Source: Camelus ferus
Lineage: Eukaryota
Assembly (NCBI RefSeq): GCF_009834535.1
Contig: NC_045696.1
Span: 39,496,001-39,560,000 of the forward strand
DNA: 64,000 nt
Reading direction: 5' to 3'
Shown piece by piece: positions 4,367 through 53,999 of this stretch. Positions within the stretch are counted from its first letter, which is position 1. Every line of letters begins with the position of its first letter. The notes under the pieces were generated by a model. That model searched no databases and was not told the DNA's origin. It saw nothing but the letters and a program-made list of their open reading frames with translations. The translations under genes were made by a program, and so were the position numbers.

Positions 4367-15829
<11,463 letters not shown>

Positions 15830-15982
15830 GCTCCCGTGCTGTCACCCTGGGCAGTGCCCGCGTCCCAGAGACCGGCCCCTGAGCCGCTGGAGTCCCGAGC
15901 GGTGAGCGGCGGACCACACTAGGAGAGGGAACCTTTGCGGGGTAAGAGCTACTACCGGGTCGGCTCCCCGAGGGGTGCGAGG

Positions 15983-35172: not shown

Positions 35173-35901
35173 AATTTTTACCCACTCGTTTCATCAACAT
35201 TTAAGCATTTCTAAATCCTATTACTTCACAACAAAAATACTGAAATAAATAAACCTCTCTTTCAGTTATGCTACAGTTTATCAATATCTCAAAAATGTGG
35301 CTCCAGAATTAAATACATATGATAAAATGTTAGACAAAAAGCTCAAGTTTTTGTTTACCTTTGTTACTATGTAGCACTTATCAGGTACTTCGGGAAGTGC
35401 TAGGTAAGTGTGTGTTGGATGGGTGGACCCTGCAAACAAGACTCACTGCAGAGTTACAATAGGACTAGTTATCTCCTGTGGTCTGGTCACTAAAAAGAAT
35501 TATTGAAAACTGAATTGCAGCCTTGAGGCTTCGGAAGAGGCTCACCTCCACCATCCTTCACTATATAGCAAAAAGAAAACCTGGTCGGACCCAAATGAGA
35601 TCAATGAAATCACCAGCAGTGGATCTGGAAGCTGATCTAAGATGAGTTGGTCATTTGGAAGCCTGTGACTGTCCATTCCTGGGCTCAATGCTGGAAAAAC
35701 AACTTAGCCTGTCTTAAAAGCAGGCACAGGGACACAGGCATGCAAAAGGCACTATCAAAGCTCAAATGCCTGAGACAGTAACCTAGATGAAAATTCTGTG
35801 TTGGCGTTCAGAAGATACAGTGAATCTAAGATTGGCCTCGACATGTACCACACCCTGTACCTGAAGGTGAAGGGGAACATATCTGAAAACAGGCAGATTC
35901 T

Positions 35902-36002
35902 TCTTTTATTTTTTTTTTTTTAAATGGAGGTACTGGGGACTGAATCCAGGACCTCATGCATGCTAAGCATGCACTCTACCACTGAGCTATGCCCTCCCCT
36001 CG
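35902..36002 (-). mobile_element. Short tRNA-derived SINE (camelid Vic-type)
   Basis: Minus strand GGGGAGGGCATAGCTCAGTGGTAGAGTGCATGCTTAGCATGCATGAGGTCCTGGATTCAGTCCCCAGTACCTCC plus A tail; 13-bp TSD ACA(G/A)GCAGATTCT at 35889-35901 and 36003-36015. Confidence 0.88.
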
Positions 36003-39000
36003 ACAAGCAGATTCTCATGGAACACACCCACAAGCTGAAAATAGACCAGCCCAGCAAGCAGCTGCTGGCTGATGTGACTGAGACCTGCAGGTCTAAGATC
36101 AAGGATGCACATTAACACCCAGAAGAGTGACTCCAGGCCAAGCAGGAGGAGACTGTGAGGAATGAGGCCAACAGCTAAAGCTCCCCATCTCTTGTCTGTA
36201 CACAGTGGCCTCCGAGATTGCATAGATCCATCATTCCTTAGCACTGGCCTTTATCTGCCTGAGAGGGAAAAAGTGAATTGCATTTATTTTTCTGTCAACT
36301 CTTTGGTCATGTTGAACATTTAACCAATTAAAAATCTAAGTCTTTTTTCACATAAGTACTGTTCAATAAGATCTCTCTCCCTCCATTAACGGGTTACTGA
36401 TTTACTGAAATACAGGATTTTACATTCATCGTTAGCTACATTTCATCATATTAGCTTCCACCAATTTGATTTAACCTTCGTCTATCATTATGCATGCTAA
36501 TTACTATTTTCGGATTTGTGACACTTGTAAATTTGATTACAGTGTAAATCTCTATTCATCTAAATTGTTGACTTAAGAAAGATAAATGAAAAAGAAGAGA
36601 AGGTAGAGTGTAATGCCTTGTAATATGTCACCAGAGCCTTGTGCTAAATTGTTCCTAATCTGATAGATGGCCAGCTTTGATTTTCAGATGCCAATTGGCA
36701 TAACTATTATGTACTATCATCTAGTGCAAATTTCTGCATCTTTTCTACCAAGATATAAAAGTCTTTAGTTGTATTTTGGCATTTCTCTCCAAATTCTTTA
36801 AATTACCAGTAGCACTTCCTAAGTCACTTGTAGATGTCATTATTCCAACCAAAGTATAAAGTTCACCTAAATCTGGATGTGTACCTGATGTAAATTACCT
36901 AGGACTCTTTTATTACCTACTACTCTTTGGGGGCTTCCCTCTACTTCCTACTGCCCTATTACTTGTATTTCTCTATTAATATTTGAGATTTGGCTTGTTT
37001 ACATATGTTTCTCTTTGATTTACCACTTTAGTTGCTCTGCTTTCTCTGTCCTTGTCTAACATTGCATTTTTTTGTCCCATTGATGTCTCTCTTTCCCTAC
37101 CTTACTTTTTTCAGTCAAGAACTTCTGCATCTCCTAACCCTACCAGGTTCTTCTCTTCTCAAGAGATTTTTTTTGTTGGTATTAGCTTTAAAAATACGTA
37201 TATGCAATGTATAACTGAATCACTTTGCTGTACACCTGAAACTAACATTATAAATCAACTGAACTTCAACAAAAAATAAGAATTAAGAATAAGAAGAAAA
37301 GTATGCATAACCTCAACATACATGAAAGTTTATATTTCCTGATATTTCTTTTATATTTCCAATCACTACCCCCCCACCGTGTATTTGTCTTCCATCTTTG
37401 CCCTTTAAATGCTTGACCATTTATTCATTCATTCATTCATAGTAAATGGATATCTATTGACGACCTTCTATGTCCTTGTCGGTGCTAGATGATGCCAATA
37501 CTGAGTCATGACCCAGCAAATGCCTTTAAGGAGCTCATGAACTAGTACAGAATTTACACAGGTAAGCAAGCGTGTGGAAAGGTGTGGAAAGAATTACTAT
37601 GGCCAAGGAGCGCAAAGGTAGGGATACCAAACCCAGACTGTGAAAGTCAGAAAACATGTCTGGAGGATGTGCTAGCCATGCTAAGTCTGGAAGTAGAGGC
37701 TGTAGGATATGTGTGCTGGTGCATGGACTTCTGTAGATGCCATCTCTCTCTTTTTCATCAAAATCACTCTTAACAGCTTGGCTTATAGGGTTTACCATTG
37801 AGCTATCTTGATAAATGACTTCTCACTTTTTCATCCATAAACATGTTTTCAGGACCCACTCAATGCCAGGATCATGTTATATGACACCTTTTCTTTTAAA
37901 GATGCATTTTAAAGATTCAGGGAATTCCCTGCTTTCTCGCTCCCTCATGATTTTTGGGAACTTTTGAAATCGGCTTTCCAAAGTAAAAAAGTATTCATCT
38001 GGCTCTGCCCATTGTTTCTTCCTTGACAACCAACAACTTTAAACTTTTAGGTTCATTTTTACTTTGAAATAGTTGTAAAAATAATATATTGAGTGCTTTC
38101 TATGGGCACTATATTAAATGCTCTGGGAGATACACAAAGATGACTAAGATTTAGGCCCTTTCCTCATGAAGCCTGTAAACTAATAGTGGAAACATGCACA
38201 CCGAACACAATAAAGATAATAATAAATGCTCTACTAAAGATATTTTACATTTAAAGAATTTCTTGGTTAGAATTAAGTTTACAAGAGAGCCCCTTGTTTC
38301 TTCCTTAATTATTAGAGGCTTGATAAGATAAAGTAACACTGTAAGGATAGAAAGTTTGGATTAATTCAAAAATTTTTTGAGAAGAGCTGTATAATTTTTT
38401 CTTAAGTGTTTTTGTGTTTTCAGCATATTCCATGCAAGAGAGTGCATGGACCAATCTAATCGTATCCAGTAATTCAAAAGTCAATTCATCAGGTTAACAA
38501 AATGTAATAATTGTATAATGGATCAAATTAGACTTTAAAATATACATTGAAGAGTCAGTGTTACCTATGGGCTTTCATGTTCTACATTATATTTTTCTGT
38601 AATTTTGGAATACTTTTTGGTAATGATCATGCATTACCTTTTTAATTAGAAAATATATGTTCATAAATATGTATGTGGAGCTTCTATTAGGAAAAGACAT
38701 TATGCTAATTCTCTAGAAAGTTATTTGTTAGGTTTCTTTTCCAAAATGAAAAAATACATATATGATTATAAGAGTTTGAAAAATATGGAAAATAGATAAA
38801 AGAAAAAAATTACCTATAAATCTATCTCACTAACTCAAATGTTAGTGACGTTAATGGTGTGTTTCTTTCCTCTCTCTTTTTTTAAGTGACTAGATAGCAA
38901 CATTTTTAATAATATTTAACCCACAAGAACAGGAATATTTTCTTCATGTGTATCCAATTCTGTACTTCAACCCAGATGAAATGGTAGAATCATGGAATAT

Positions 39001-40800: not shown

Positions 40801-40826
40801 TATGCCTGGTTTTTCCTGAAGCTGAG

Positions 40827-40928
40827 ATGGAATCCAAGGCAGAGGGCCTTCTCCCTGAAGAATGTAGGGTTGCTCTTAATCAAGTAGCATCTTATGAGCT
40901 GAATGTCAGTGATGCTTATGTATCTATG
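40827..40928 (+). CDS. FTDC1: Ferritin-domain gene exon 1 coding part (helix A)
   Basis: GAGATGG Kozak context; MESKAEGLLPEECRVALNQVASYELNVSDAYVSM|GTCAGT, versus ferritin H [20 protein letters not shown]|. Confidence 0.88.
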
Positions 40929-43900
40929 GTCAGTATAGTTCCTTGAGCCACTATGAGGAATGTTTTGGCGCTAATCTGGATAATGTATCTTCTATATCCT
41001 TACTAATTGTGGTGACGGCCATATTTGTGGTTTGATACTACTTGAAAAAACAATTTAGTGGCTGAGACTTTGCTGCTCTGTGGCCTAGTGATTTAGAGTT
41101 GGGGTTGCAAACTATGGGCTTATATTGGGAGAACTGCAGTTCTTTTCAGATGATTCCCAAAGCTTTTATGCACATCAGACACTGGTATAAATAATTTTTC
41201 AACCATCTGCTATTTTAGAGCCAATGTAGACGTGTTAGGATTAGTGAAATAGATTAACTTTAAAATGTCAATTCATGCTGGACTTCCGCCAATTGTCTGC
41301 ATGATTACTGGACATAGGGCTACCATGTAGGGTTCTCAAATCTGACCCTTGAAGAGGCCTAATAGGCAAATATTGGGCACCAGCATATCACAATCTGGAT
41401 GGTTTCTCTTTGAGGTAGCCTGGGAGGCAACTGGGGCCTTCTGGAAGTCAAAGAACAAACCAAGGACTCTGGACTGAACACAGAAGGCCTCTTTCAGACA
41501 ACCACAGAGACAGCAAAGTGAGTTTGTGTGAGATTACAGTCTTGAAAATCAGCTTCTCTCACCTCCAGTCTCTCCCCATTCTTCTCCCTGTCCCAGACCT
41601 GTTATTACACTGAAGACAAAGAAACACCTGCTTTTCTCACATTCTTCGAAGACCAAGCTGAGGTGAAGAGGGAACATGCGAAGCAGTTCATAAGATATCT
41701 AAAAAAATATAAGTGTAAAGTCTGCCTTCCGGTGATTAAGGTGACTATGTAACTTTGTTCCGGTGATCTCCGTGGGGCCTTTACTGGGTCTAGAGAACTA
41801 AATTATGAGATGCTACCTAACTTGTTAGGTTACTCATGTTCCTACATGAGTATTATAGCAACTGACCTTGAAGGTAAGCATGTGTCTTCTCTGTAGCCTC
41901 TTCATATCATTTTGAGTAAATTTTAGTCTCTAAATGCTTGTTTGGCTTTTCTCAATGAGCCATTCAAAGTGTGGTCTCTGGACTAGCAGCACCAGCAGCA
42001 CCTGGGAATTCATTAGAAATGCAAATTCAGGGACCCCACTCTGATAAACTGAATCAGATTCTCTAAGGCTGGGGCACAACGATCCGTAGTTTACAAGCTC
42101 TCCAGGTGATTCTAATCCTCTGTACAGTTTGAGACTCATTACTCTAATGGTCTCTTCCTAGAGCTGTTAGCATCCTCTGTTAGACCTTAAGTCTAATTCA
42201 GAGACACACTGGGGTGCTTAATATAGCTGTCTCTTCAATGTAGTAAAACAAAATTTTTTTCACTAGAACAGACACTCGAAAGAAACAATGTGAACCTTAG
42301 TTGGGGGGATTACATTTAGAAACATTCCTACCTACCTGAGGGGTTCTTTTAACTCAAGGTCTATAAAGCAAACTAAATATCTGGTGGTACAGAACTCAAC
42401 ACCGTCCAAAGCTAATGAAGTCCCAGAGCTAAAGGCATAGTGCATGCAGCTGTGCTGGTGGTACCCGGGCTTTGTAGAATATTAAAGCCACCTGGAGAGC
42501 TTTTAAAACTCCTGCCCCTCCTTACTAATTAAGTCAGAATGTCTGCAGTTGAAAGCCAGACATCAGTATTTAAGGTGCTCTGCTGAGTCTGTTGTGTCAC
42601 AAAGTGTGGGAACTATTGGCCTCTGCGAACCTAGTTCTAATTCTACCCAGGAAGTAGGAAGTAACCAAGCTATGCCTCAGGTAGGATAGTGACTCCCCTG
42701 TTCCTCTCCAACAGAGGCTGGATATAGAAAACTGGGGAACTGGCAAAAAAGCTATCGAGTCTGCCCTGCAGTTGGAGAATACGTTAAGCAGCCTTCTGCA
42801 AGACCTGAAGGCCTTGGCTTCTCGGAAGAAACAAGCCAGTGTAAGTAGTAAGCTGGTTCTGAAAGCACTGTCATCTTTCCCTTCTAGATAATGACTTGCT
42901 TCTGAGAGATGAGCCTAAGACAGTGGATTATCTAATGTGTTTATTTTCCTCCAAAGAAGTACATGAACTTATTTCTGGGAGTAGGTGGGAGGTGGGAGGA
43001 GTAGGTACCCTGGTAAGGAGGAATGCAATGCAGAACATGATGAATAAGACTTCTCAGGAATAATGGACTCTGGATATTTAAAGAAGCACAGCCTTGAGAT
43101 CTGCTGTCTTAGATTGCCCCTACAAAAGTGAATGTTTAAGGTGACCTATTGTGTAGACTCCTCTGAAGTCTTCCTGGTTAATGGTGAGCACTCTCCCTTG
43201 CAGTGGTAACTTATTTTTCACCAACCTAGCTTCTCTGGAAGTCAAAATGAAGAAAAGGCCCTCGTAGAAAAGTTACTAACCTAGATGCTCATTGGACTCT
43301 CTGAGGAACTCTGAAAAGGATCAAATGGGAGCCCTACACCAGACTACTTTAATCTAAATCCCTGGGAATGGGGTCTGGGAGCCTACTCAAGATTTACACA
43401 TTATTCAAATAGAGTAGAAAACCATTGCTGTAGTAGCTTATTACTTAAATTAATCTGCATTTTTGATGAGATGCCTTAACACTCATATTCATTGAAGGTG
43501 GCTATCTGTATTCATCTGGAGGTCCTGAATGTCATAGGTGGGTGCTCTTTGAACTTCAATATGCATATGAATCACCTAGTCCCTTTTTAAAATGCAGATG
43601 CTGATTTGGTAGGTCTGGAAGGGATTCAATATAATGCATTTCTGACAAGCTCCTAGGACTGCTGGCCCATTAGCTATAATTTGGGTAGCAAGATCTTAGA
43701 TTGCCTCCCATTGCAGACAAAGTCCTTAGTGAGTTGACCCCCATTTTATTTCTGTAGCTCGCACGCTTCATGAAGAAGTTCCTGGATGAACAGATCAGGA
43801 ACATAAGCTATCTGGAATACCAGCTTGGCTATCAGGAGGAATTAGAGAAGATGGCAAAGAATGAAGGACAGGATGAAAAGGCTGCTGTGGCATCTGAAGC

Positions 43901-43973
43901 ATCAGGTAAAGAGACACCTGAAGGCAACACAGCACGTCTTCCCACCCAGCAGGTCCCAAGCCCAGAATCTTGA
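40827..43973 (+). CDS. FTDC1: Divergent ferritin-domain protein (FTDC1/FTDC2-like); whole gene span, 4 coding exons, 588 nt, 195 aa
   Basis: Exons 40827-40928, 41597-41740, 42715-42840 and 43758-43973 have phase-0 GT-AG junctions and no stops or frameshifts. They align to ferritin H exon by exon. The symbol rests on my recollection that mouse Ftdc1/Ftdc2 lie next to Cpox; which paralogue this is cannot be resolved from the sequence. Confidence 0.88.
41597..41740 (+). CDS. FTDC1: Ferritin-domain gene exon 2 (helix B and BC loop)
   Basis: Polypyrimidine tract plus CCCAG; TCYYTEDKETPAFLTFFEDQAEVKREHAKQFIRYLKKYKCKVCLPVIK|GTGACT, versus ferritin H SYYFDRDD...QSHEEREHAEKL...LQDIK|. Confidence 0.9.
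41950..42140. mobile_element. MER5A-like DNA transposon in intron 2 of the ferritin-domain gene
   Basis: caaagtgtggtc..cagcagcacctgggaattcattagaaatgcaaatt...ccaggtgattctaat...agtttgaga. Confidence 0.8.
42715..42840 (+). CDS. FTDC1: Ferritin-domain gene exon 3 (helix C)
   Basis: 126 nt; RLDIENWGTGKKAIESALQLENTLSSLLQDLKALASRKKQAS|GTAAGT, versus ferritin H [42 protein letters not shown] (same 42 codons). Confidence 0.92.
43758..43973 (+). CDS. FTDC1: Ferritin-domain gene exon 4 coding part (helix D plus polar tail)
   Basis: TTTTATTTCTGTAG acceptor; LARFMKKFLDEQIRNISYLEYQLGYQEELEKM...VPSPES*, versus ferritin H [21 protein letters not shown]. Confidence 0.9.
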   Translation, partial: LARFMKKFLDEQIRNISYLEYQLGYQEELEKMAKNEGQDEKAAVASEASGKETPEGNTARLPTQQVPSPES

Positions 43974-44041
43974 TCGTCTCCATTTAACAGAAGACTGCTT
44001 TCCTTTTCATCTAGACTCCTAATCCTCAGTGTTGGCATGCA

Positions 44042-44047
44042 AATAAA
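44042..44047 (+). terminator. Polyadenylation signal of the ferritin-domain gene
   Basis: AATAAA 68 nt after the TGA stop. Confidence 0.75.
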
Positions 44048-48466: not shown

Positions 48467-50900
48467 GTGTTGTCTTTATCCAGTCATCTGTTGATGGAAC
48501 TTAGGTTGCTTCTGTACCTTGGCAATTGTAAATAATGCTGCTAGGAACATTAGGGTGCATATATCTTTTCAAATTAGTGTTTTTGTTTTTTTCAGATATA
48601 CCTGGGAGTAGAATTGCTGGGTCATATAGTAGTCTTTGTCTGGTTTTGGTATCAGGGTGAGGCTGGACTCATAGAATGAGTTTGTAAATGTTCCTTCTTC
48701 TGCAATTTTTTGGAATAGTTTAAGAAGGATAAATGTTAACTCTTCACTAAATGTTTGGTAGAATTCACTGTGAAGCCATCTGGTCCTGAACTTTTGTTTG
48801 TTGAGAGTTGTTTAATCACTGATTCATTTTCAATACTGGTAATTAATCTGTTCATATTTTGTACTTCCTCCTTGTTCAGAATTGGGAGATTGTACCTTTC
48901 TAAGAATTTGTCCATTTCTTCTAGGTTGTCTGTTTCCTTGGCATGTAGTTGTTTGTAGTAATTTCTTGTGATCCTGTGTATTTCTGTGATATCAGTTGTG
49001 ACTTCTCCTTTTTTATTTCTGATTTTACTGCTTTGGGCCCTCTCCCTTTTTTCTTGATGAGTCTGGCTACAGGTTTATCAATTTTGTTTATCTTTTCAAA
49101 GAACCAGCTTATAGTTTCACTGATATTTTATATTTTTAAAAAATCTTTATTTCATTTATTTCTGCTCTGATCTTTATGATTTCTTTCCTTCTACTAACTT
49201 TGGGTTTTGTTTGTTCTTTTTTCTCTAGTTGCTTTAGGTGTAAGGTTAGGCTGTTAATTTGAGGTTTTTCTTATTTCCTGAGGTAAACTTTATAGCGATA
49301 AACTTTCCTCTAGAAGTGCTTTTGCTGTGGTACCATAGGTTTTGGATCATTGTATTTTCATTTCCATTTGTCTCTAGGTATTTTTTTATTTCCTTTTTAA
49401 TTTCTTCAGTGGTCCATTGCTTGTTCAGTAGATATTGTTTAGCCTCCACGTGTTTGTATTTTTGCAGTTTTTTTTTCTTGTAGTTGCTTCCTAGTATCAT
49501 AGCATTGTAGTCAGAAAAGATGTTTGACATGATTTCAGTTTTCTTACATTTACTAAGGCTTGTGCTGTAGTCTAGGATGTTATCTATCCTGGAGAATGTT
49601 CCATGTGCACATGAAAAAATTGTGTATTCTGCTGCTTTGGGGTGGAATGTTCTATAAATATCAAGTCTGTTTGGTGTTGTTTAAGGCCAGTGTTTACTTA
49701 CTTGATTTTTTTGTCTGGATGATCTGTCCATTGATGAAGATGGGGTTTTAAAGTCCTCTACTATTATTGTGTTACTACTGATTTCTCCTTCTATGTCTGT
49801 TAATATTTGCCTTATATATTTAGGTGCTCATATGTTGGGTGTATATATATTTACAATTGTTGTATCTTCTTCTTGGATTGATCCTTTGATCATTTTGTAG
49901 TGTTCTTCTTCCTCTCTTGTAACTGGCTTTTTTTAAAAGTCTGTTTTGTCTGATATAAGTATTGCTACACTGGCTTTCTTTTGATTTCCATTTGCTTGGA
50001 ATACCTTTTCCCATCCCCTCGCTTTCAGTCTGTATGTGACTCTAGATCTGAAGTGAGTCTCTCGTAGGCAGCATATATCTGAAGTGAGTCTTTTGTACCC
50101 ATTCAGCCAGTCTGTGTCTTTTGGTTGGAGCATTAAGTCTGTCCTACATTTAAGGTAGTTTTCAATATGTATGTTAGTTGTTTTAGGGTTTTTTTTTGTA
50201 GATCTTTTTGTTTGTTTGTTTTTACCTTCTTATTTTGTTCTCTTCTTTTGTGATTTGATGACAATCATTAGTGTTATGTTTAGATTCCTTTTTCTTTTAT
50301 ATGTGAATATCTGTTGATTTTTGGTTTGTGGTTACCATGAGGTTTTCATATAGGAGTCTGTATACATAATGATCACTTTAAGTTTCTGATCTCTTAATTT
50401 CAAATGCATTTTTTAAATCCTGCATTTTTACTCTCCTCCCCTCATGATTACTGTTTTTGACATCATATTTTACATCTGATTGTTTTGTGTATCCCTTAAC
50501 TGCACATTGTGAATATAGATGATTTTACTACTTCTGTCTTTTAACCTTCTTAGCTTTGTGTGTTGATGATTTCTTACCTTTATGGTATGTTTGCCTTTCC
50601 TGGTGAACTTTTTTATTTCATAATTTTCTTATTTCTAGTTGTGGCCTTTTCTTTTTGCCTCAAGAAGCTCCTTTAACATTTGTTGTAAAGCTGGCTGGAT
50701 GGTGCTGAACTCTTTTAGCTTTTGCTTGTCTCTAAAGCTGCTGATTTCTGCATCAAATCTGAATGAGAGCCTTGCTGAGTAAAGTATTCTTGGTTATAGG
50801 TTTTTCTTTTTTATCACTTTAAATATATCATGCCACTCCCTTTCTGGCCTACAAAGTTTCTGCTGAAAAATCAGCTTATGGGAGTTTCCTTGCATGTTAT
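48070..50900 (-). mobile_element. Large L1 relic (3' UTR joined to a decayed ORF2 endonuclease region), with (TG)n at 48423-48462
   Basis: Minus-strand fragments ICCLRETHF..LKARGWEKVFQANGNQKKASVAILISDKTDF and EEIKKEIKKYLETNGNENTMIQNLW are L1 ORF2p; many stops. Confidence 0.9.
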
Positions 50901-52131: not shown

Positions 52132-53999
52132 CTCCCTCTCTTTCAAAAGTGCTATTTTCTTGCGTCTGCCTCGTCTGTGTGACTCCTCACCCAAACACAT
52201 TCTAAGCCTTCTGTCTCCAACACTCTCACTGCACCTGCCCTCTTTGATCACAGTTCTCACTGATGATGGGACCTCAGCCTTTTGGGAGGAAATATTTACT
52301 GTTGATTTCTGATATCTGCCACATCTAAAACACTTCTGTACATCCTGTTCTTCTCAGAAACACCTGCATCACTGTTGTGGCTTCCTGAATTAAACTTCTT
52401 ACTTCCGATGCCAAAACAGTTATCATCTAGGATACATAAAGGGAGAAAGTGGAAGAGAAAGAATCCAGTAATAATAGATGTCATAAAGCACATCCACTGA
52501 AATGTTTACTTCCTAAATGTGAGCAATACCTCTTGAATGCATAAACCATGTCATTTGTCTGCTAAAGAGCATTAAGGAATAGAGGCTGCGCTGGCAGAAA
52601 ACCCTCCTAGAAACATCAGGTATATAAATGCAAAAAGGCAAGCCTTCATAAAGAATCATGAATTCAACCTAGATTAGAGGAAGCCAATTGATTTTGTAAA
52701 TACAGAAAAGAGAGGTACTGATTTAGGAAAAAAATCAAAATCACTTAGCCTGGATTGTTAACCTCATTCTTTTGCATCTGCAGGAAACTCTTACAAGTAG
52801 ATGATCCAGAAATCTCCAACTCAAACAGCAATGATAAATAAAAAGGAAGAAGGGGTTGGGCGAGGAGAACTGGCTTGACTACAGATGCTATTAGAGAAAA
52901 AGGAGGGGAAATAAATCACAATTTATTAACATATGAGGAGTTCTCTGGCATGGAACAGTTGAAAACTATGAACAAATGTTTTAGTTTTAGCTACCCTAGT
53001 GGGTGTACAGTGCATCCTGCTGAAGTTTTCATTTGCAATTCCCTGATGACTGTGGAAAGCAAATGTCTAAAGCTGTTAGGAAGTAAGTTTGGAGAATAAC
53101 TGTACCTTCTGCCTTGGTCCTCTATAGGAGCAGAACTGAGCCTGATTAAGAGGAATATCACAAATGCAATCTTCTGGGAGGGCAACATACAGACACTGAA
53201 GACTCTCCAGGATCCTGCCTGTTAGCATTAGAGGTATGACCACTGGGTCACTGCATGGAGGTTGCTCACAGACATTATTATTACCAGTATTGTGTTTTCT
53301 TAAATCCTGAGAGACACAAGGGGAACTATGCCTTTGCAAATGATTTATTTGTGCCTCTTTAATTCCTAACAACGTGAAGTTACCAGTAGAAAATAAATTT
53401 CTTAAAAACACTGTGGAGATAGTTTCTTAAACATCAGAAAGCAAAATTGCTAGGTTTTGTACATCTTCAGTCATACTAAATCAGTTCAATTAAACAAGTA
53501 TCTATTGAACACCTTCTAGTTAACATGGACTTAACTTGGATGCTGGGGATACAAAATTAAATGAGCTTTGCCATAAAGATGTGTACTGTCTAGTAAAGAA
53601 CACGTATATATGTAAATAATTAGAATTCAGTGTGGTAAATGCACCCATAAAAGCCTGTGTGAGGCAGAGAAGAACACAGAAAAAGAGTGACCTTCTCTGC
53701 CAGAGTAGGGGGACACAGCATGAAAAACTTCTGATCTGGACCTGGATGGATGACTCAGAGTTCAATAGGATGGGGGAAGCGGGATAGAGCTCTTCAGGCT
53801 TAGCTAGTGGTATCAGGTCAGATCATGTAGTGTCTTTCATGGCATGTTAGCATGCTTGGGTTCTGTTCTTCAGAGGATGGGAAAGCAACAAGTTTAGACA
53901 TAGATATGGCTTGATTAGATTTGCAGTTTAGAGCAAGAGACCTTAGTAGCACAGTAGCTGATGGTGTTGTTCTTATTCTGACTTTGCTATCTGTGTGTA

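What the first reader, a model, noticed from the sequence alone, without database searches (positions are those of the whole stretch)
40827..43973. Intact, highly divergent four-exon ferritin-fold gene largely missed by the ORF track
Seen: four exons (102, 144, 126, 216 nt) with canonical phase-0 splice sites give an uninterrupted 195-aa protein with Kozak ATG and AATAAA. Established: the three introns fall where they do in vertebrate ferritin H and L (after ..YxSM, ..xIK, and the end of helix C). This points to a genomic duplicate rather than a retrocopy such as FTMT, FTHL17 or the many FTH1 pseudogenes. Inference: it is the camelid orthologue of mouse Ftdc1/Ftdc2, which I recall as oocyte-expressed neighbours of Cpox. 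An intact frame despite strong divergence suggests a functional, poorly characterised branch of the ferritin family outside rodents.
Basis: partly seen in the sequence, partly recalled or inferred. Interest (0 to 1): 0.85.

Follow-up and report, generated by a model that had tools for sequence, protein, structure and literature searches.

The report
Camel Ftdc: ferritin that dropped iron
This is an intact four-exon camel gene beside the haem-enzyme gene CPOX, a member of a placental-mammal-wide ferritin offshoot (named Ftdc in rodents) that has replaced key iron-handling residues and likely serves as an egg-cell binding protein rather than an iron store.

Summary
In detail: four GT-AG, phase-0 exons give an open 195-aa protein with a Kozak ATG and AATAAA, 25 kb head-to-head from CPOX. 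It is the camel member of a ferritin clade found in elephants, primates, rodents, bats, carnivores and ungulates. That clade (100/100 support) includes a hamster protein named Ftdc2. Databases mislabel most members 'ferritin heavy subunit-like' or 'soma ferritin'. Added here: the bridging ferroxidase Glu62 is Lys in 64 of 67 members; the three-fold channel acids are mostly gone; helices A-D are kept; helix D is one residue shorter; helix E is replaced by an acidic, predicted-disordered tail; no IRE. So it is likely a pseudoenzyme. Mouse E330017A01Rik, a Cpox neighbour, is ovary-only, oocyte-predominant and FIGLA-dependent; its identity with Ftdc2 and a DNMT1-cofactor role are recalled, not read. 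Trees place the clade away from H chains, beside a conserved marsupial M-type ferritin, but weakly (88/70; AU tests disagree between datasets). Camel splicing and expression were not shown; dN/dS was not computed. Verdict: an orthologue of a known gene with under-described biochemistry and origin.

The parts
40827..40928 (+). Coding exon 1 (34 aa; helix A, Glu24 = H-chain Glu27, Tyr31 = Tyr34)
40929..41596 (+). Intron 1, 668 nt, GT-AG, phase 0
41597..41740 (+). Coding exon 2 (48 aa; helix B with Lys58 at the Glu62 position and His61 = His65; conserved Cys-Leu-Pro-Val loop)
41741..42714 (+). Intron 2, 974 nt, GT-AG, phase 0
42715..42840 (+). Coding exon 3 (42 aa; helix C, invariant Glu103 = Glu107)
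42841..43757 (+). Intron 3, 917 nt, GT-AG, phase 0
43758..43973 (+). Coding exon 4 (71 aa + TGA; helix D with Arg127/Lys130 at the channel positions Asp131/Glu134, a one-residue deletion, no helix E, acidic tail of pI 4.4)
44042..44047 (+). AATAAA polyadenylation signal, 68 nt after the stop codon
40699..40769 (+). Candidate core promoter: two CAGCTG E-boxes (40699, 40726) and a TATA-like TATTTAA (40763); function untested
   Evidence: 28 CAGCTG in the 64 kb window; noticed post hoc
6551..15841 (-). CPOX neighbour, head-to-head: six segments hit PF01218 in order, profile positions 1-269 of 295; the last short exon was not tested

Best explanation
This intact four-exon camel gene is the orthologue of rodent Ftdc, a placental-mammal ferritin offshoot beside CPOX whose protein keeps the four-helix ferritin sequence but has lysine at the bridging ferroxidase glutamate, basic residues at the iron-entry channel and no helix E, so it is likely a catalytically dead, oocyte-made binding protein rather than an iron store. 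Shown here: gene structure, synteny with CPOX, clade membership, the residue changes. Predicted: a four-helix bundle with a long straight helix D and a disordered acidic tail (model of the narwhal orthologue). Inferred: Lys58 pairs with the invariant Glu103 to fill the empty metal site, as in L chains; it has no ferroxidase activity and does not load iron. Inferred from mouse: it is switched on in growing oocytes by FIGLA through upstream E-boxes and stored as maternal protein. Recalled, not read here: mouse FTDC1/2 bind and stabilise DNMT1 and so preserve DNA methylation and imprints in early embryos; the camel protein would do the same. My odds by step: orthology 0.92, ferroxidase-dead 0.85, oocyte expression in camel 0.75, DNMT1-cofactor role conserved 0.5.
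For: Gene anatomy. CPOX head-to-head; mouse Gm813 and E330017A01Rik sit in the Cpox domain (PMC11913378; PMC12026470). Relatives: 65 proteins and 92 by profile; the named ones are all placental mammals. Hamster Ftdc2 found at E 5e-34, 35% identical to the narwhal orthologue and gapless over helices A-D. Clade of 18 of 18 rows at 100/100. Sites in 67 near-full members: Glu62 position K 64, E 1; Glu61 position V/L/M 62; Asp131 position D 4, E 9; Glu134 position E 2; Glu107 67; Gln141 64. In the 18 tree rows the Glu62 position is K 14, R 4, E 0. Helix-D deletion in 17 of 18 family rows and 0 of 32 others; helix-E motif in 0 of 66 family proteins and 27 of 32 others. Model: helices 11-37, 48-71, 92-119, 123-160, tail pLDDT under 50; Z 20.2, rmsd 2.5, 156 aligned to mouse H ferritin 3wnw. 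No IRE in the window. Glu62 is a ferroxidase ligand and Glu134 a channel residue (PMC8395497); the two channel acids guide iron in (PMC7692541). E330017A01Rik is ovary-only by qRT-PCR, oocyte-predominant and nearly absent in Figla-null ovaries (PMC1906760). Short-contig proteins of other mammals read across junctions 1, 2 and 3 in 7, 14 and 16 of 39.
Against: No camel read across any junction was obtained, and no dN/dS. The junction-joined proteins may be retrocopies rather than transcripts and none is shown to be camel. The names Gm813 = Ftdc1 and E330017A01Rik = Ftdc2 and the DNMT1 role are recalled: the paper is not held, and no Mus musculus sequence was in hand. Camel is only 33% identical to hamster Ftdc2 over the core (one of the low values) and muroids have lost residues that other mammals keep, so the function may have diverged. 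Glu27 (56 of 67), His65 (54 of 67), Tyr34, Glu107 and Gln141 are retained, so some metal binding is not excluded. Loss of helix E alone does not stop cage assembly in mutant human L ferritin (PMC7692541). The 67-member set is redundant (several dogs, bovids, bats) and holds some faulty models. The E-boxes were noticed post hoc.
Confidence: 0.65

Rival explanations
1. It is an L-like helper subunit that co-assembles with H chains into ferritin cages in oocytes and tunes iron storage.
For: L-type rows also carry Lys at the Glu62 position (3 of 4). The ferritin fold is kept and the BC-loop stretch that forms the two-fold contact in ferritins (recalled) is well conserved. Helix-E-less L mutants still form 24-mers (PMC7692541).
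Against: Channel acids are replaced, in camel by Arg and Lys. Helix D is one residue shorter at the channel end. Helix D runs on to residue 160 in the model and is followed by a 35-residue tail, which would crowd a four-fold axis (inference). Identity to H and L rows is only 23-29%. No IRE.
Confidence: 0.14
2. It keeps a single-metal site (Glu24, His61, Glu103, Gln136) and acts as an iron or zinc sensor or chaperone in oocytes, possibly linked to haem synthesis by its CPOX neighbour.
For: Those four residues are kept in 56, 54, 67 and 64 of 67 members; the gene is head-to-head with CPOX.
Against: Lys58 sits at the bridging position. Vole, hamster and Mus caroli members have lost both Glu24 and His61 (alignment). 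The 25 kb gap makes a shared promoter unlikely, and the mouse Cpox enhancer RNA knockdown did not alter contacts with Gm813 or E330017A01Rik (PMC12026470).
Confidence: 0.12
3. In camel it is a silent or decaying duplicate whose frame is still open by chance.
For: Members evolve fast (camel-macaque and camel-elephant 54%). Orangutan, gibbon and marmoset models start at internal methionines, hinting at losses elsewhere. No camel junction reads were seen.
Against: The frame, all six splice sites, the Kozak context and AATAAA are intact. Camel is 76% identical to narwhal and 62-69% to ruminants and rhino, with an ordinary end branch (0.21; median 0.2). Camelus ferus has the same exons 2-4.
Confidence: 0.06

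Closest known systems
Rodent Ftdc1/Ftdc2 (ferritin domain containing; hamster Ftdc2 CAH6792432.1; mouse Gm813 and E330017A01Rik, name mapping recalled)
   Same: One clade (100/100), same two one-residue deletions, no helix E, basic residue at the Glu62 position, next to CPOX.
   Different: One copy in this window against two or more in rodents; camel is less diverged, keeps Glu27 and His65, and has the cetartiodactyl tail extension to 195-196 aa. Expression and partners are known only for mouse.
Ferritin H chain and its offshoots (FTH1, FTMT, FTHL17)
   Same: PF00210 four-helix bundle; same three intron positions as FTH1 (exon lengths recalled; consistent); Glu27, Tyr34, His65, Glu107 and Gln141 mostly kept.
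   Different: Glu62 is Lys; channel acids lost; no helix E; no IRE; 24-29% identity; not grouped with H rows in either careful tree. FTMT and FTHL17 are intronless (recalled).
Ferritin L chain (FTL)
   Same: Lys at position 62 with Glu107 kept; 102-nt first coding exon (FTL value recalled).
   Different: 23-27% identity; no helix E; channel acids lost; not grouped with L rows in the best trees.
M (middle)-type ferritins of frogs, fish and reptiles, and a conserved 176-aa marsupial ferritin (P0160 cluster, 11 members)
   Same: Best vertebrate PDB matches of the elephant orthologue are frog M and L chains; nearest neighbours in both careful trees; the marsupial protein also has Lys62 and its best PDB matches are frog ferritins.
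   Different: They keep helix E, the channel acids and full-length helix D; most reptile and frog M chains keep Glu62. Sister support is only 70/33 and 88/70, and 7 of 11 marsupial records are auto-named FTHL17-like.

Membership tests
Ferritin-like domain (PF00210) | Profile match above the curated cut-off | tested here: met
   Partial camel model P0001 48.3 bits and narwhal orthologue 85.9 bits against a cut-off of 24.5; joined camel protein 99.5 bits on a profile of non-family ferritins.
Ferritin-like domain (PF00210) | Four-helix bundle A-D | tested here: met
   Predicted model of the narwhal orthologue (76% identical); Z 20.2 to 3wnw.
Ftdc clade | One clade with a protein named Ftdc | tested here: met
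   18 of 18 rows including hamster Ftdc2, 100/100.
Ftdc clade | Position next to CPOX | tested here: met
   mouse neighbourhood from PMC11913378; gene-name mapping recalled.
Ftdc clade | Oocyte-specific spliced expression | tested here: inconclusive
   No camel reads laid; junction-joined proteins in other mammals; mouse data PMC1906760.
Ftdc clade | DNMT1 binding (recalled for mouse) | not testable with these tools
Catalytic (H/M-type) ferritin | Complete di-iron site including bridging Glu62 | tested here: not met
   Lys58 in camel; K in 64 of 67 members.
Catalytic (H/M-type) ferritin | Acidic three-fold channel (Asp131, Glu134) | tested here: not met
   Arg127 and Lys130 in camel; D 4 of 67 and E 2 of 67.
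24-subunit ferritin cage | C-terminal helix E | tested here: not met
   Motif in 0 of 66 family proteins; absent from the model; PDB alignments end in helix D.
24-subunit ferritin cage | Self-assembly into a 24-mer | not testable with these tools
   A cage cannot be modelled here.
Cytosolic H/L ferritin mRNA | 5' iron-responsive element | tested here: not met
   Rfam scan of the window gave one match, a tRNA-like element; the true 5' end is unknown.
Ferritin retrocopies (FTMT, FTHL17, FTH1 pseudogenes) | Intronless | tested here: not met
   Three introns.
M-type ferritin lineage | Phylogenetic nesting among M-type chains | tested here: inconclusive
   Best trees agree. AU rejects H (p 0.019) and L (p 0.014) on 37 rows but not on 61 rows (p 0.177, 0.301).
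M-type ferritin lineage | Shared synteny with marsupial or reptile M-type loci | not testable with these tools
   No vertebrate genomes are held.

The most novel reading that the evidence does not exclude
Ftdc is what became of the vertebrate M-type ('middle') ferritin in placental mammals, a lineage usually described only for fish and amphibians (recalled). Marsupials would keep an intermediate form: already Lys62, still with helix E. On the placental stem (branch length about 1.05 changes per site) it shed the channel acids, one residue of helix D and helix E, stopped being a cage subunit and became a maternal chromatin cofactor that has been kept from elephants to camels.
Probability: 0.35. 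Interest if true: 0.68.

Novelty: new member of a known kind. Interest (0 to 1): 0.42.

Why it matters
If right, placental mammals carry a third intron-bearing ferritin gene that is a pseudoenzyme, and many database entries called 'ferritin heavy subunit-like', 'soma ferritin' or 'ferroxidase' in cattle, sheep, horses, bats, carnivores and macaques are misnamed. Camel and other ungulates have a less-diverged form than mouse, a better starting point for structure work and for asking whether the maternal methylation role recalled for mouse holds in livestock oocytes, IVF and cloning. An M-type origin would add a case of an iron-storage subunit co-opted for reproduction at the base of placental mammals.

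Tried and rejected
Whole genome: none held, so no search for other camel copies. No junction reads were obtained. DNA of relatives for dN/dS: metagenome scan, 299 pattern matches, none confirmed. Homodimer prediction of the narwhal orthologue, residues 5-162: no answer (0.21 and 0.15 against a mark of 0.32), no evidence either way. Foldseek 'pdb' was busy; VIA-align was used. Literature: 'Ftdc1' gave 1 unrelated paper; FTDC+oocyte+DNMT1 0; 'oocyte-specific cofactors'+DNMT1 0; ferritin+middle subunit+phylogenetic+mammals+synteny 0; ferritin+M subunit+marsupial+phylogen 0; soma ferritin+oocyte+bovine 1 zebrafish paper, listing only; ferritin+DNMT1+oocyte+maternal-effect+imprint from 2025 0; two guessed ids not held. 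The library lacks most subscription papers, so none of this shows absence from print. Earlier findings: none. Rejected: retrocopy origin (introns); Pfam Kp4, TcaA and Rubrerythrin side hits (all under cut-off); shared Lys62 as proof of the marsupial link (it also occurs in L, some reptile M-like, FTHL17-like and invertebrate rows); the Camelus ferus model's first and last exons (they map to 35843 inside a ribosomal-protein pseudogene and to 53133-53219, and look like gene-finder joins).
Full report
1. Observation. The introns are 668, 974 and 917 nt, all GT-AG and phase 0. The ATG has a strong Kozak context and AATAAA lies at 44042. Single exons match Pfam Ferritin only weakly (2 of 4, both under the cut-off). 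The joined protein scores 99.5 bits against a profile made only from 43 non-family ferritin rows, against 6.3 bits for the best of 200 shuffles. Five orthologues used in tblastn find these four exons and no second copy within the 64 kb.

2. Surroundings. Six minus-strand segments between 6551 and 15841 match coproporphyrinogen III oxidase (PF01218) in order, covering profile positions 1-269 of 295, with a CpG island at about 15-17 kb. CPOX therefore lies head-to-head, about 25 kb from the ferritin-like ATG. In mouse, Gm813 and E330017A01Rik lie in the domain bounded by Cpox (PMC11913378, passages; PMC12026470, passages). That these are Ftdc1 and Ftdc2 is recalled. Upstream of the ATG are two CAGCTG E-boxes (40699, 40726) and a TATA-like TATTTAA (40763); the window holds 28 CAGCTG in all, and the pair was noticed after the fact. 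CAGCTG is marked as an E-box in the GDF9 regulatory region (PMC4093997, passages). Rfam finds no iron-responsive element.

3. Family. The narwhal orthologue (196 aa, 76% identical) retrieved 65 proteins and a 29-sequence profile 92. The named ones come from cetartiodactyls, perissodactyls, carnivores, pangolins, bats, mole, primates, squirrels, treeshrew, elephant and manatee, under names such as 'ferritin, heavy subunit-like' and 'soma ferritin'. An index-free profile search (1994 hits at E up to 0.001, best 150 listed) added divergent members. I looked up 20 of them. They include pika, porcupine, mole-rat, shrew, vole, Mus caroli, Arvicanthis and 'Ftdc2 [Phodopus roborovskii]' (E 5e-34). No marsupial or non-mammalian protein with the family's features was among the 20 named, but most of the 150 were not named. 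Several species have more than one copy (Molossus, Eptesicus, sheep, raccoon dog).

4. Tree. I aligned helices A-D (149 columns). Group labels of unnamed rows were given by likeness to PDB and named ferritins, not by curated orthology, and unalignable ends of 16 partial rows were blanked. With 61 rows (bootstrap not fully settled) the 18 family rows form one clade at 100/100 on a stem of 1.05. The clade is sister to four marsupial rows (88/70), inside reptile M-like rows (83/91), on the non-H side (95/88); the 13 H, FTMT-like and FTHL17-like rows group apart (98/86). With 37 rows (the fastest rodent rows and others left out) the family is 100/100, the marsupial sister 70/33. AU tests rejected family+H (p 0.019) and family+amniote L (p 0.014) on 37 rows but not on 61 rows (p 0.177 and 0.301). 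The marsupial protein is a conserved 176-aa ferritin (11 cluster members) whose best PDB matches are frog ferritins, mostly M (245-252 bits against 232 for human H); 7 of 11 records are auto-named FTHL17-like. So orthology to Ftdc is firm; an M-type origin is favoured but not shown. Two one-residue deletions mark the family: AB loop in 16 of 18 family rows against 1 of 43 others, helix D in 17 of 18 against 0 of 32.

5. Protein anatomy. Positions were mapped through alignments to shrimp and frog ferritins; H-chain numbers for Glu27, Glu61, Glu62, His65 and Glu134 follow PMC8395497 (passages), the others are recalled. Among 67 near-full members of 134 aligned (redundant, some faulty models, muroids not yet included): Glu27 E 56; Tyr34 Y 60; Glu61 V/L/M 62; Glu62 K 64; His65 H 54; Glu107 E 67; Gln141 Q 64; Asp131 D 4, E 9; Glu134 E 2. 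Camel has Lys58, Arg127 and Lys130 at the Glu62, Asp131 and Glu134 positions. The channel acids guide iron into the cage (PMC7692541, passages). The AlphaFold2 model of the narwhal orthologue (mean pLDDT 79) has four helices, an unbroken helix D to residue 160, no helix E and a low-confidence tail; it matches ferritins best (Z 19-21). The helix-E motif is found in 0 of 66 family proteins and 27 of 32 other rows. The camel tail has pI 4.4 and the core 8.3. Against a no-cage reading: L ferritin mutants without helix E still assemble into 24-mers.

6. Expression. Not shown for camel. Of 39 proteins from short ENA or Logan contigs of other mammals, 7, 14 and 16 read across junctions 1, 2 and 3. 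P0021, on a 986-nt contig, joins exons 1-3 and runs into what resembles intron 3. These are transcripts or retrocopies; either way the introns are removed at these positions in relatives. Mouse E330017A01Rik is detected only in ovary, predominantly in oocytes, and is virtually absent in Figla-null ovaries (PMC1906760, section 8), and falls in a model of ovarian insufficiency (PMC9513667, passages).

7. How it most likely works. Shown: an intact Ftdc orthologue lacking the bridging ligand, channel acids and helix E. Inferred: Lys58 and invariant Glu103 fill the empty metal site, so the bundle is a stable, ferroxidase-dead scaffold. Inferred from mouse: FIGLA-driven oocyte expression. Recalled and not read here: a 2025 report that mouse FTDC1 and FTDC2 bind and stabilise DNMT1 and are needed for methylation maintenance in early embryos; ten literature searches and two id look-ups did not reach it. 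I put the whole chain at 0.65. Rivals: an L-like cage subunit (0.14), a single-metal sensor (0.12; muroids lack both site-A ligands) and a decaying duplicate (0.06).

8. Novelty. The gene is a new member of a known kind: rodent genes are named, and partial or misnamed models exist in many mammals, camel included. What my searches did not find in print is the placental-wide spread, the pseudoenzyme signature and the possible M-type ancestry; the library lacks most subscription journals, and no supplements were read. Interest 0.42. The most novel reading, M-type ferritin surviving in placental mammals as a maternal cofactor with a marsupial intermediate, has probability 0.35 and would merit 0.68.

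Noticed in passing
window about 35500-36200, + strand: Decayed processed pseudogene resembling ribosomal protein L19 (weak Pfam Ribosomal_L19e_C hit, E 0.0094), interrupted by a tRNA-like element at 35925-35996 on the minus strand with a T-tract and a 9-nt flanking direct repeat at 35893 and 36007; likely a SINE insertion, not a tRNA-Ala gene.
   Followed up: partly
window 40802-40819, + strand: A five-codon upstream ORF ends 8 nt before the main ATG (read); it would lie in the 5' UTR if transcription starts about 30 nt after the TATA-like box.
   Followed up: no
window 43905-43913: A strong donor-like site inside exon 4 at the point where the Camelus ferus model splices away and near where non-cetartiodactyl orthologues end; an alternative last exon is possible.
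   Followed up: partly
window 44004-44010: TTTTCAT, recalled as a non-consensus cytoplasmic polyadenylation element, 38 nt before AATAAA in a very short 3' UTR; 21 such words in the window, so weak.
   Followed up: no
window about 48700-50300, - strand: Broken frames that look like LINE-1 ORF2 (recognised from memory); Pfam gave no LINE hit on 3 of 3 pieces.
   Followed up: partly
proteins P0076, P0129, P0083, P0079: Orangutan, gibbon, marmoset and mouse lemur models begin at an internal methionine in exon 2, while macaque, capuchin and douc models are full length: possible loss or mis-annotation of exon 1 in some primates, including apes.
   Followed up: no
proteins P0160, P0269-P0278: A conserved marsupial ferritin, auto-named FTHL17-like in 7 of 11 records, is M-type-like by tree and PDB match and has Lys at the Glu62 position; worth study in its own right.
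   Followed up: partly
proteins of Molossus, Eptesicus, Cnephaeus, Nyctereutes, Ovis, Marmota: Repeated lineage-specific duplications and fused tandem gene models; many junction-joined short-contig copies in canid-like and ruminant-like records may be retrocopies, which would point to germ-line expression.
   Followed up: partly
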